This document shows positions 52,602 to 53,063 of a DNA stretch of 64,000 nucleotides, one piece after another. The notes beneath the pieces are model-generated. The model worked only from the letters and a program-made list of their open reading frames with translations, ran no database searches and was not told where the DNA came from. Origin of the DNA: Dehalococcoidia bacterium (lineage in GTDB: Bacteria; Chloroflexota; Dehalococcoidia; SHYB01). Where the stretch lies: the NCBI GenBank assembly GCA_965248515.1, contig CBDFJU010000002.1, forward strand, positions 878,847 through 942,846. Reading direction: 5' to 3'. Made by a program: the position numbers and the translations under genes. Each line of letters begins with the position of its first letter. The stretch's first letter is position 1.

Positions 52602-53063
52602 ATGGCCGTCGAAGTGGGCGAAAAAGCCCCCGACTTCACGATGCCGGACCAGAATGGCGACCAGGTAAGTCTCAGCGACTTCAAGGGGAAACAGCCGGTA
52701 GTGTTCGGCTGGTACCCCGCCGCGTTCACCGCGGGCTGAGCCAACCAGGTCTCCACGTTTCACCGCAACGTGAAACGGTTCGAGGAGAAAGGCGCTCAGG
52801 TCCTGAGCGCAAGCACGGATAGCAGACACTCGCAGAAGATGTTCGGCAACGGACTCGGAGGCGTGACACACCCGATCCTCTCGGACTACCACCCGAAGGG
52901 GCAGGTAGCCGGCGCCTACGGCATTTACAACGACGAGTCGGGTATGTCCCGCCGCGCCGCCTTCGTTATCGACAAAGAAGGCGTAGTGCGGTTCTCCAAG
53001 GTGTACAGCGGTGGATTGCCCGACGTCGAAGAGCTGCTCGCCGAGATCGACAAGCTCGGCTAG
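52602..53063 (+). CDS. Peroxiredoxin (Bcp/PrxQ type) with in-frame TGA (52737-52739) at the peroxidatic-Cys position: candidate selenocysteine peroxiredoxin
   Basis: ORFs 52434..52739 and 52770..53063 share a frame. AGGAGG 6 nt before ATG 52602; the sequence reads KAPDFTMPDQNGDQVSLSDFKGKQPVVFGWYPAAFTAG-TGA-ANQV...; Bcp homologues as I recall have FYPKDFTPGCTTE there. Confidence 0.6.
52756..52777 (+). promoter_or_regulatory. Candidate SECIS-like hairpin (8-bp stem CGUUUCAC/GUGAAACG, loop CGCAAC) 17 nt 3' of the UGA
   Basis: Seen directly; position is compatible with bacterial SECIS spacing, but no model was run. Confidence 0.35.

What the first reader, a model, noticed from the sequence alone, without database searches (positions are those of the whole stretch)
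52602..53063. Peroxiredoxin with TGA in place of the peroxidatic cysteine, plus a SECIS-like hairpin
ORFs 52434..52739 and 52770..53063 share a frame. Starting from ATG 52602 (AGGAGG SD), the product is a Bcp/PrxQ-type peroxiredoxin reading ...GWYPAAFTAG-UGA-ANQVSTF.... The UGA falls where these enzymes carry the peroxidatic Cys (FTPGCTTE as I recall). An 8-bp hairpin (52756-52777) starts 17 nt after the UGA, and a GC-rich terminator follows the gene. Sec-containing Prx-like proteins are known, so this is probably a real selenoprotein that automated annotation would split. Together with the UGSC gene, that makes two independent UGA-Sec candidates in 64 kb.
Basis: partly seen in the sequence, partly recalled or inferred. 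Interest (0 to 1): 0.8.

Follow-up and report, generated by a model that had tools for sequence, protein, structure and literature searches.

The report
Selenocysteine peroxiredoxin gene, known marine family
This is a real but ordinary gene for a peroxide-detoxifying enzyme that uses selenocysteine (encoded by UGA) instead of its catalytic cysteine; it belongs to a selenoprotein family catalogued in ocean metagenomes since 2008, which gene-finders still cut in two.

Summary
ATG 52602 (AGGAGG 6 nt upstream) to TAG 53063 is one 153-codon reading frame, interrupted only by TGA 52737-52739. Read through, it is a full AhpC/TSA peroxiredoxin (Pfam 4.6e-35). The TGA falls on the peroxidatic Cys of the PxxxTxxC motif.

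Comparative evidence is decisive. All 17 nearest database relatives are C-terminal fragments of split gene calls. Fifty-eight distinct sequences from independent assemblies carry TGA, never TAA or TAG, at this codon. Both halves are conserved, and no conserved restart codon follows. More distant homologues, and one 93%-identical variant, have Cys there.

A bipartite stem-loop follows the UGA in 56 of 58 sequences. It shows compensatory changes and is absent from the distant Cys forms.

Corrections: the enzyme is AhpE-type, not Bcp/PrxQ. The downstream hairpin is strong but lacks a U-tract.

A second selenoprotein gene (UGSC family, TGA at 10493, minus strand) lies in the window. No selA/B/D or tRNA-Sec is in the window, so the machinery is untested.

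The family (Prx, TxxU) is listed in the 2008 GOS selenoproteome, including FTGGU sequences of this clade. Verdict: a new member of a known kind, low interest.

The parts
52538..52543 (+). Possible -10 box (TATAAT), 59 nt upstream of the start codon
   Evidence: Read directly from the sequence. No acceptable -35 hexamer, and the promoter scan did not call it. Inferred only.
52590..52595 (+). Shine-Dalgarno AGGAGG, 6 nt before the ATG
   Evidence: The N-terminus MAVEVGEKAPDF coincides with the N-termini of orthologues and of M. tuberculosis AhpE.
52602..53063 (+). Complete coding sequence of a 153-residue AhpE-type peroxiredoxin with Sec at residue 46 (stop TAG 53061-53063). The protein contains no cysteine at all.
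   Evidence: Translation. Pfam AhpC-TSA 4.6e-35 over residues 5-131 and Redoxin 4.7e-22. Best solved relatives are AhpE at 94 bits. P39-x3-T43-x2-U46 and R118 are invariant in the clade alignment.
52737..52739 (+). UGA codon read as selenocysteine (U46), at the place of the peroxidatic Cys
   Evidence: TGA at the homologous codon in 58 of 58 distinct sequences of the clade. Cys codon in 11 more distant loci and in a 93%-identical variant (TGC). Aligned to the catalytic Cys of AhpE.
52750..52788 (+). SECIS-like bipartite stem-loop. Lower stem UCUCC 52750-52754 pairs with GGAGA 52784-52788. Upper stem 52756-52763 pairs with 52770-52777. Apical loop CGCAAC is at 52764-52769, 25 nt after the UGA. 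In the MFE the helix extends outward to pair UGAGC 52737-52741 with GCUCA 52794-52798.
   Evidence: MFE folds. The same architecture appears in 56 of 58 relatives. RNAalifold consensus for the window's clade. Covariation is above shuffles (0 of 500) and above slid registers. It is the positional outlier along the gene.
53087..53117 (+). 14-bp G+C-rich hairpin after the stop codon; probable terminator or transcript-stabilising hairpin without a U-tract
   Evidence: 72-nt stretch 53064-53135 containing it folds at -40.3 kcal/mol, z = -3.2. Not called by the terminator scan because the T-run is missing.
9063..10826 (-). Second selenoprotein gene of the window (context, not part of the peroxiredoxin). 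UGSC-family domain fused to a ~400-residue C-terminal region (no family match), with in-frame TGA at 10493-10491 in the motif GA-U-GSC.
   Evidence: Pfam PF24696 UGSC 1.8e-25 covers profile positions 1-171 of 172 only when the TGA is read through (the fragment alone scores 2.9e-8). NCBIfam UGSC_fam 4.7e-15, below its cut-off. A 5-bp hairpin with loop CGUGGU starts 15 nt after the UGA, not significant on its own.

Best explanation
The region 52602-53063 is a single gene for a 153-residue AhpE-type peroxiredoxin. Its peroxidatic residue is selenocysteine, encoded by UGA 52737-52739.

Inferred mechanism of decoding. The mRNA stem-loop starting 13 nt after the UGA (52750-52788) acts as a bacterial SECIS. 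It recruits SelB-GTP-Sec-tRNASec to the ribosome, so the UGA is decoded as Sec rather than as a stop.

Inferred mechanism of catalysis. The selenolate of U46 is positioned by T43 and R118 of the PxxxTxxU active site. It attacks the peroxide O-O bond and forms a selenenic acid. The protein has no cysteine, so an external thiol reductant must return it to the selenol, as in 1-Cys peroxiredoxins. Candidates are a thioredoxin-, glutaredoxin- or mycoredoxin-like protein or a low-molecular-weight thiol. That partner is unknown.

Shown here: the uninterrupted frame, the family assignment, the exact Cys/Sec correspondence, conservation of TGA and of both gene halves, and the conserved and co-varying RNA hairpin.

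Inferred here: actual Sec insertion, the presence of the Sec machinery in the organism, peroxidase activity, and the identity of the reductant.
For: 1. The read-through product is a full AhpC/TSA domain (4.6e-35). It aligns end to end with M. tuberculosis AhpE, and the U falls on the catalytic Cys.

2. The 17 closest database proteins (55-89% identity) are all C-terminal fragments of 85-102 aa. The closest full-length proteins are only 48% identical or less and carry Cys.

3. In 17 contigs from JGI, ENA, NCBI and Logan, the gene is called as two pieces, one mostly 43-50 aa (97 aa in L030, where the caller chose an upstream start) and one of 85-102 aa. The pieces are separated by an in-frame TGA at the identical codon.

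4. A metagenome scan returned 80 loci. Sixty-eight have TGA at this codon, 11 have Cys and 1 is frameshifted. All 58 distinct Sec-form sequences use TGA.

5. Synonymous changes are abundant in the N-terminal piece, at 10/8, 16/14 and 16/15 synonymous/nonsynonymous against three same-length relatives. The first possible restart codon lies anywhere from 4 to 95 codons after the UGA, so the downstream piece is not an independent conserved ORF.

6. A 93%-identical gene carries TGC at this codon and still keeps the hairpin.

7. RNA structure. The hairpin has a single apex 16-37 nt after the UGA in 56 of 58 sequences. Mean z is -2.2 in Sec forms against +0.2 in Cys forms. The window is a positional outlier along the gene. 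Compensatory pairs such as C-G to G-C, U-A and A-U exceed shuffles (0 of 500) and all slid registers. RNAalifold gives a consensus in two subclades.

8. TGA is an ordinary stop for about a third of the window's genes, including Pfam-complete ones, so the genetic code is standard.

9. A second gene from a known selenoprotein family (UGSC) with in-frame TGA lies 42 kb away.

10. The family is on record. Prx (pfam00578, TxxU) had 253 Sec sequences in GOS. The paper's supplementary sequences include FTGGU reads of this very clade, for example JCVI_READ_1170303.
Against: - No selA, selB, selD or tRNA-Sec is in the 64 kb, so the organism's ability to insert Sec rests on indirect evidence.
- The window's own hairpin is only marginally better than shuffles (z about -1.9 to -2.0).
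- RNAalifold found no consensus on the full 48-sequence alignment, because the upper stem shifts register between subclades.
- Part of the lower stem is fixed by codons for conserved residues (VSS/FEEK). Its conservation alone therefore does not prove an RNA constraint.
- No Rfam family matches, and Rfam appears to hold no general bacterial SECIS model.
- The 68:11 ratio comes from search patterns built on Sec-form sequences and is biased.
- There is no protein-level evidence.
Confidence: 0.93

Rival explanations
1. Pseudogene or sequencing/assembly error. The TGA is an inactivating mutation or a miscalled base in a Cys codon (TGC/TGT), and no full-length protein is made.
For: A single base separates TGA from TGC or TGT. 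One near-identical relative has TGC. One low-quality contig has Leu at the site along with other odd substitutions (P0124).
Against: TGA sits at the same codon in 58 distinct sequences from many independent assemblies and sequencing technologies, and TAA or TAG never appears. Both halves stay under purifying selection. A conserved, co-varying hairpin follows the codon.
Confidence: 0.02
2. A true stop: two separate small proteins. An N-terminal 45-residue peptide and an independently initiated C-terminal piece of about 97 residues (GTG 52770) might reassemble as a split peroxiredoxin.
For: Gene callers annotate it this way everywhere. A GTG lies 11 codons after the TGA in the window.
Against: The catalytic residue would be missing altogether. 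The segment between the TGA and the putative restart (ANQVSTFHRN) is conserved as protein. The first possible restart codon ranges from 4 to 95 codons downstream among relatives, so there is no conserved start. The window's GTG lies inside the hairpin stem, with no Shine-Dalgarno sequence.
Confidence: 0.02
3. UGA is read through as a standard amino acid (Cys, Trp or Gly). This could happen by near-cognate or suppressor decoding, or through a reassigned genetic code, without selenium.
For: The Sec machinery was not seen in the window. From general knowledge, Cys can be misinserted at UGA-Sec codons when selenium is scarce.
Against: TGA terminates about 20 of 54 candidate ORFs in the window, including genes whose Pfam domains are complete, so there is no code reassignment. 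The downstream hairpin, which is lost in distant Cys forms, is what a SelB-dependent mechanism predicts and has no role in simple read-through. A second gene of a dedicated selenoprotein family is present.
Confidence: 0.03

Closest known systems
Prx selenoprotein family (pfam00578, motif TxxU) of marine metagenomes (Sargasso Sea / GOS selenoproteomes; Zhang and Gladyshev 2008, PMC2398784)
   Same: Same Pfam domain, same TxxU motif (here T43-A-G-U46), and the same marine or metagenomic origin. The paper's supplementary sequences contain reads of the same clade, for example JCVI_READ_1170303 ...FHIFDFTGGUTNQVTSFRQYNDRFEEKDAQVLSISCDS..., which matches loci L086 and L087 found here.
   Different: The published family is defined broadly and pools several peroxiredoxin subtypes (PKASTPGU, FTGGU and others). 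The AhpE-type clade is not singled out in the papers I could search. The window's own sequence is not in the protein collection.
PrxU, the selenocysteine peroxiredoxin of Eubacterium acidaminophilum (Sohling et al. 2001, cited in PMC13188914; NCBIfam NF040737)
   Same: Sec replaces the peroxidatic Cys of a PxxxTxxC peroxiredoxin. It is the best-scoring NCBIfam model for this protein (1.3e-24).
   Different: The score of 87 bits is far below the 270-bit equivalog cut-off. The model is 233 positions long (Prx1/AhpC-like), against 153 residues here. So this is a different peroxiredoxin subfamily.
Mycobacterium tuberculosis AhpE (Rv2238c; PDB 1xvw, 1xxu, 4x0x)
   Same: It is the closest solved structure (E 7e-26, 94 bits, residues 4-138 aligned). 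It has the same length of about 153 aa and the same active-site Pro/Thr/Arg, and it is a 1-Cys type with no resolving Cys. The full-length Cys homologues in databases are named AhpE or mycoredoxin-dependent peroxiredoxin.
   Different: AhpE has Cys where this protein has Sec. Identity is only about 40%. AhpE's known reductant system (mycoredoxin-1/mycothiol, from general knowledge) is actinobacterial and is not expected in a Chloroflexota-like organism.
Bacterial SECIS elements, e.g. E. coli fdhF (general knowledge of the SelB-dependent mechanism; bSECISearch-type criteria)
   Same: A stem-loop lies inside the coding sequence immediately 3' of the UGA. Its apical loop is 16-37 nt from the UGA, there is a G early in the loop (CGCAAC), and in the window's clade the UGA itself pairs at the base of the extended helix.
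   Different: There is no sequence similarity to fdhF. There is no GGU loop or defined bulged U. The upper stem differs in sequence, length and register between subclades. Binding to SelB is untested.

Membership tests
Peroxiredoxin (AhpC/TSA, PF00578) | Domain match above the Pfam gathering score | tested here: met
   120.7 bits against a cut-off of 26; residues 5-131 cover profile positions 1-123 of 124.
Peroxiredoxin (AhpC/TSA, PF00578) | Active-site PxxxTxxC(U) motif plus the conserved Arg | tested here: met
   P39, T43, U46 and R118 are present. T43, C/U46 and R118 are invariant in alignment A1; P39 is not invariant there (H in the most divergent row). They align with the corresponding AhpE residues.
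AhpE subfamily of peroxiredoxins | Closest to AhpE among solved and annotated peroxiredoxins; about 150 aa; 1-Cys (no resolving Cys) | tested here: met
   The seven best PDB sequences are all AhpE-type (six M. tuberculosis AhpE entries plus 4xih, labelled AhpC/TSA family protein; 91-94 bits), against 76 bits or less for Bcp-like and 69 or less for Prx1. Full-length homologues are named AhpE. The protein has no Cys. No formal phylogeny was made.
   67.3 bits against 140, and 52.4 bits against 260. Bcp structures rank below AhpE.
PrxU equivalog (NF040737) | Score above the 270-bit equivalog cut-off | tested here: not met
   87.2 bits, with only profile positions 35-176 of 233 covered.
Bacterial selenoprotein | In-frame UGA conserved among orthologues and aligned with Cys in homologues | tested here: met
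   58 distinct TGA forms, 11 Cys forms, and one 93%-identical TGC variant.
Bacterial selenoprotein | SECIS stem-loop immediately downstream of the UGA, conserved in structure | tested here: met
   56 of 58 sequences have a single hairpin with its apex 16-37 nt after the UGA. Covariation beats 500 of 500 shuffles and all slid registers. Positional outlier along the gene. Consensus structure in two subclades.
Bacterial selenoprotein | Organism encodes selA, selB, selD and tRNA-Sec | not testable with these tools
   None is in the 64-kb window. The rest of the source contig could not be fetched. A second selenoprotein gene (UGSC) gives indirect support.
Bacterial selenoprotein | Selenium actually incorporated at the UGA position | not testable with these tools
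   Needs 75Se labelling or mass spectrometry.
Prx (TxxU) selenoprotein family of the GOS/Sargasso catalogues | pfam00578 domain with the TxxU motif; sequences of the same clade listed in the catalogue | tested here: met
   The motif here is T-A-G-U. See the family table. FTGGU reads of the same clade are in the supplementary sequences.

The most novel reading that the evidence does not exclude
This AhpE-type clade may be a distinct, mostly Sec-using lineage of cysteine-free '1-Sec' peroxiredoxins.

Two features would set it apart. First, its reductant is not one of the known AhpE partners. Second, its SECIS lower stem is built from the codons of conserved active-site-proximal residues (V-S-S and F-E-E-K), so that protein residues co-vary to keep the RNA paired. 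An example is Ser(UCG) to Gly(GGG) together with Glu(GAG) to Gln(CAG) in L053, L056, L062 and L064. That would be a clear natural case of amino-acid covariation driven by RNA structure. It would also give a tractable system for asking why Sec is retained over Cys, because near-identical Sec and Cys variants coexist.
Probability: 0.3. Interest if true: 0.4.

Novelty: new member of a known kind. Interest (0 to 1): 0.2.

Why it matters
The practical value is for annotation. Gene callers at JGI, ENA, NCBI and Logan all split this gene into two fragments. No NCBIfam model covers the AhpE-type Sec form. The antioxidant repertoire and the selenium dependence of these organisms are therefore under-reported. 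By weak homology evidence, the organisms are Chloroflexota/Dehalococcoidia-like and rich in CoA-transferase and enoyl-CoA hydratase genes.

Biologically, the finding adds a well-supported example with many natural sequence variants. That could be useful for defining SECIS rules outside Proteobacteria and Firmicutes, and for comparing Sec with Cys in a minimal, cysteine-free peroxiredoxin. It does not change what is known about selenoproteins.

Tried and rejected
- **Genome-collection scan with the single protein.** It returned only distant Cys homologues at 26-44% identity, because the peptide patterns were too specific.
- **Rfam.** The whole-window gathering scan gave 0 hits, but it also missed two tRNAs that score 48 bits locally, so that negative is unreliable. 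A local E-value scan of 52700-52850 gave only chance-level hits. There appears to be no usable bacterial SECIS model.
- **RNAalifold on all 48 aligned sequences.** It predicted nothing, because the upper stem changes register between subclades. Splitting the set into two clades gave consensus structures.
- **Cluster look-up for organism names.** It returned none, and the window's own fragment is not in the collection.
- **Fetching the source contig through the 100%-identical CoA-transferase P0131.** It failed with 'not on record', so the Sec machinery could not be sought beyond the window.
- **Codon-by-codon comparison of the N-terminal part.** It is invalid for relatives with a one-codon indel (L023, L030, L032, L036, L043). 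Only the same-length relatives are used.
- **Bcp/PrxQ and PrxU membership.** Both were rejected on model cut-offs.
- **Reassigned genetic code.** Rejected, because TGA is a common stop in the window.
- **Literature search for a described Sec-AhpE, or for SAR202 selenoproteins.** Nothing specific was found.

Full report
**1. What is in the sequence**

AGGAGG lies at 52590-52595 and is followed 6 nt later by ATG 52602. From there a single frame runs to TAG 53061-53063. Its only interruption is TGA 52737-52739.

The read-through product is 153 residues:

MAVEVGEKAPDFTMPDQNGDQVSLSDFKGKQPVVFGWYPAAFTAG-U-ANQVSTFHRNVKRFEEKGAQVLSAS...LAEIDKLG

It contains no cysteine. The 8-bp hairpin exists as described: 52756-52763 pairs with 52770-52777, with the loop CGCAAC. 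A 14-bp G+C-rich hairpin lies at 53087-53117, after the stop. The 72-nt stretch around it folds at -40.3 kcal/mol with z = -3.2. It has no U-tract and fails the terminator consensus scan.

**2. What the protein is**

With Cys substituted for the stop, the protein matches Pfam AhpC-TSA at 4.6e-35 over almost the whole model, and Redoxin at 4.7e-22.

- The best solved relatives are all AhpE-type, chiefly M. tuberculosis AhpE (1xvw, 1xxu, 4x0x; about 94 bits, E 7e-26). They rank ahead of archaeal Bcp-like proteins (76 bits or less) and Prx1 types (69 bits or less).
- In that alignment the UGA position falls on AhpE's catalytic Cys in ...FPLAFTGIC..., with the Thr and Arg also aligned.
- NCBIfam models for Bcp, PrxQ and the selenoprotein PrxU all score far below their cut-offs: 67 against 140, 52 against 260, and 87 against 270.
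- Full-length database homologues (48% identity or less) are annotated as AhpE or mycoredoxin-dependent peroxiredoxin.

**3. Is the TGA real and conserved?**

The closest proteins in a 5.8-billion-sequence collection (55-89% identity) are all fragments of 85-102 residues covering only the C-terminal 56-65% of the query. I fetched the DNA around eight of them, giving 17 contigs from JGI, ENA, NCBI and Logan. In every case an N-terminal piece with an AhpC-TSA hit (mostly 43-50 aa; 97 aa in L030) lies just upstream, in the same frame. The two pieces are separated by one stop at exactly the homologous codon: AFT[AGS]G-*-[AT][NSD]QVS. That stop is always TGA.

A metagenome scan with a profile of these sequences returned 80 loci. 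Sixty-eight have TGA at this codon, 11 have a Cys codon and one is frameshifted. The search patterns were derived from Sec forms, so this ratio is biased.

Altogether there are 58 distinct TGA-form sequences, and none has TAA or TAG. Three further points argue against two separate ORFs:

- Synonymous changes are frequent in the N-terminal piece. The synonymous/nonsynonymous counts are 10/8, 16/14 and 16/15 against same-length relatives.
- The residues between the TGA and any restart codon are conserved.
- The first possible restart codon lies anywhere from 4 to 95 codons downstream, so there is no conserved second ORF.

One NCBI contig carries a gene 93% identical in DNA to a TGA form but with TGC (Cys) at the site, and it retains the hairpin. 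This points to a recent Sec/Cys exchange, or at worst a base error in that contig. One low-quality contig has Leu at the site (P0124).

TGA ends about 20 of 54 candidate ORFs in the window, including genes with complete Pfam domains, so the genetic code is standard.

**4. The RNA element**

In the window's MFE the pairings are:

| Element | 5' arm | 3' arm |
|---|---|---|
| Lower stem | UCUCC 52750-52754 | GGAGA 52784-52788 |
| Upper stem (the 8-bp hairpin) | 52756-52763 | 52770-52777 |
| Outer extension | UGAGC 52737-52741 | GCUCA 52794-52798 |

Across the 58 Sec forms, 56 fold into a single hairpin within nt 13-53, with the apical loop beginning 16-37 nt after the UGA. Forty-one keep at least 6 of 8 pairs of the lower stem, UCUCCUCG/CGAGGAGA.

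- Mean MFE z-score of the 60 nt after the codon is -2.2 for Sec forms and +0.2 for 10 Cys forms.
- Sliding a 50-nt window along 55 genes, the window starting 10 nt from the UGA is the clear outlier. Its mean z is -2.6, and 38 of 55 are below -2. Other windows range from +0.2 to -1.4.
- On an ungapped 48-sequence alignment, a fixed two-helix structure has 77% of cells paired and a covariation score of 0.221. Shuffles give 0.153 ± 0.011 (0 of 500 reach the observed value). Slid registers give 0.07-0.14.
- Compensatory changes include C-G to G-C at columns 20/46. At the protein level this corresponds to Ser to Gly together with Glu to Gln.

RNAalifold finds no consensus on all 48 sequences, because the upper stem shifts register between subclades. 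It does recover the structure in the window's clade (17 pairs, -20 kcal/mol) and in a second clade (10 pairs, 5 of them with double changes).

The window's hairpin alone is only marginal (z about -1.9), and no Rfam model applies. The case rests on the comparison.

**5. Context**

No selA, selB, selD or tRNA-Sec is in the window.

A second selenoprotein gene is present on the minus strand at 9063-10826, with TGA at 10493 in the motif GA-U-GSC. Reading through that TGA reconstitutes a full Pfam UGSC domain, at 1.8e-25 over profile positions 1-171 of 172. It also hits the NCBIfam 'UGSC family (seleno)protein' model, although below its cut-off.

The peroxiredoxin gene lies about 550 nt from a divergent tRNA-Leu(GAG). 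Some combination of tRNA-Leu(GAG) and/or tRNA-Gly(GCC) upstream, and often tRNA-Trp(CCA) downstream, recurs in the fetched relatives of the window's clade (except L023 and the truncated L033). This marks them as positional orthologues.

The rest of the window is rich in family-III CoA-transferases, thiolase-like proteins, enoyl-CoA hydratases and a luciferase-like monooxygenase. It also holds a mobile-element-rich block from about 20 to 51 kb. A 100%-identical CoA-transferase exists on a 968,904-bp NCBI/ENA contig. The named homologues, at about 53% identity, are Dehalococcoidia or Chloroflexota MAGs. This is weak evidence for the phylum.

**6. How it most likely works**

Shown here: a single conserved gene, Sec/Cys correspondence at the peroxidatic position, and a conserved co-varying stem-loop in the place where bacterial SECIS elements lie.

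Inferred here, from established knowledge of bacterial Sec decoding and peroxiredoxin chemistry: SelB-GTP-Sec-tRNASec binds the stem-loop and decodes the UGA. The U46 selenolate, activated by T43 and R118, reduces peroxides and becomes a selenenic acid. With no Cys in the protein, an external thiol partner of unknown identity regenerates it.

**7. Comparison with what is known, and novelty**

Peroxiredoxin with a TxxU motif (pfam00578) is one of the most abundant selenoprotein families in the GOS and Sargasso Sea selenoproteomes, with 253 Sec sequences (PMC2398784). It is also listed among established prokaryotic selenoproteins in a 2026 review (PMC13188914).

The GOS supplementary sequences contain reads of this very clade, such as JCVI_READ_1170303 ...FDFTGGUTNQVTSFRQYNDRFEEKDAQVLSISCDS.... 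That read matches loci L086 and L087 found here. UGSC-containing proteins, including fusions with an unknown domain, are described in the same paper.

I found no paper that singles out the AhpE-type Sec clade. That is a refinement of an existing family, not a new kind.

**8. Verdict**

This is a new member of a known selenoprotein family.

Its main value is for annotation, because gene callers still split the gene and no NCBIfam model covers it. It is also a variant-rich example of a non-model bacterial SECIS. Interest is low, at 0.2.

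Noticed in passing
window 50167-50258 (+): A class-II tRNA: 92-93 nt, a 21-nt variable arm with the 6-bp stem GAACGG/CCGUUC, acceptor GGAGAGG and discriminator G. That makes it tRNA-Ser-like, yet its anticodon loop reads CU-GAU-AA, an isoleucine anticodon. ARAGORN calls it tRNA-Ile(gat) and Rfam tRNA scores it at 47.7 bits. If SerRS charges it, it would read AUC/AUU as Ser. It sits at the edge of a mobile-element block.
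   Followed up: partly
window 9063-10826 (-), TGA at 10493-10491: Second selenoprotein gene. A UGSC-family domain (PF24696, 1.8e-25, complete only when the TGA is read through) is fused to a ~400-residue C-terminal region with no Pfam or NCBIfam match. This is possibly the 'UGSC/Unknown_1' fusion mentioned in the GOS paper. A small hairpin with loop CGUGGU starts 15 nt after the UGA.
   Followed up: partly
window ~20800-51900; tRNA-Leu(GAG) 51964-52050 (-); L027 3986-5308: The block contains DNA methylases, DDE and rve transposases, an RHS-repeat protein (31245-34829), a DUF3987 primase-like protein (44307-46823) and a phage-type integrase (48179-48997). It ends next to tRNA-Leu(GAG), just upstream of the peroxiredoxin. 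In relative L027 an integrase sits at the same place next to the same tRNA. This suggests that the tRNA is a recurrent integration site.
   Followed up: partly
L028, L029, L030, L031, L036, L039, L042, L044, L045 and the window: Conserved neighbourhood in the window's clade. tRNA-Gly(GCC) and/or tRNA-Leu(GAG) lie upstream on the opposite strand, then the Sec-peroxiredoxin, often followed by tRNA-Trp(CCA) downstream. The window has lost or lacks the tRNA-Gly and tRNA-Trp.
   Followed up: partly
window 52436-52469 (+): A perfect 13-bp inverted repeat, GGAGGAGGCCGGG (52436-52448) and CCCGGCCTCCTCC (52457-52469), with an 8-nt loop. It lies about 130 nt upstream of the peroxiredoxin start, between that gene and the divergent tRNA-Leu. 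It could be a terminator or an operator (read).
   Followed up: no
L055 (~550-1540) and L080 (~45-1025): A Cys-type peroxiredoxin gene (…AFFPGAFTGVCTTEMC…) lies about 520 bp upstream of the Sec-type AhpE-like gene on the same strand, so the Cys and Sec peroxiredoxins are in tandem.
   Followed up: no
L023, L024, L025: 4283-5701 (-): A 472-residue pyridine-nucleotide-disulfide oxidoreductase (Pyr_redox_2 plus Pyr_redox_dim) is divergently adjacent, 147 nt away, to the Sec-peroxiredoxin in one lineage. It is a candidate electron donor, but it is not conserved in the window or in other relatives.
   Followed up: no
L121 521-979, compared with L077: A gene 93% identical in DNA to a TGA form carries TGC (Cys) at the Sec codon and still has the full SECIS-like hairpin. 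This is a very recent Sec-to-Cys switch or a base error. Separately, P0124 has Leu at the site, plus other odd substitutions, in a 1.3-kb contig.
   Followed up: yes
window 36922-37039 and 38463-38580: Identical translated stretches appear on opposite strands on either side of the rve-integrase gene 37226-38215. They are probably the long terminal inverted repeats of an insertion sequence.
   Followed up: no
whole window: The Rfam gathering-threshold scan of the whole window returned no hit at all. Yet both tRNAs exceed the tRNA gathering score (48.7 and 47.7 bits against 29) when a 2-kb stretch is scanned. Whole-window negative results from that mode should not be trusted.
   Followed up: yes
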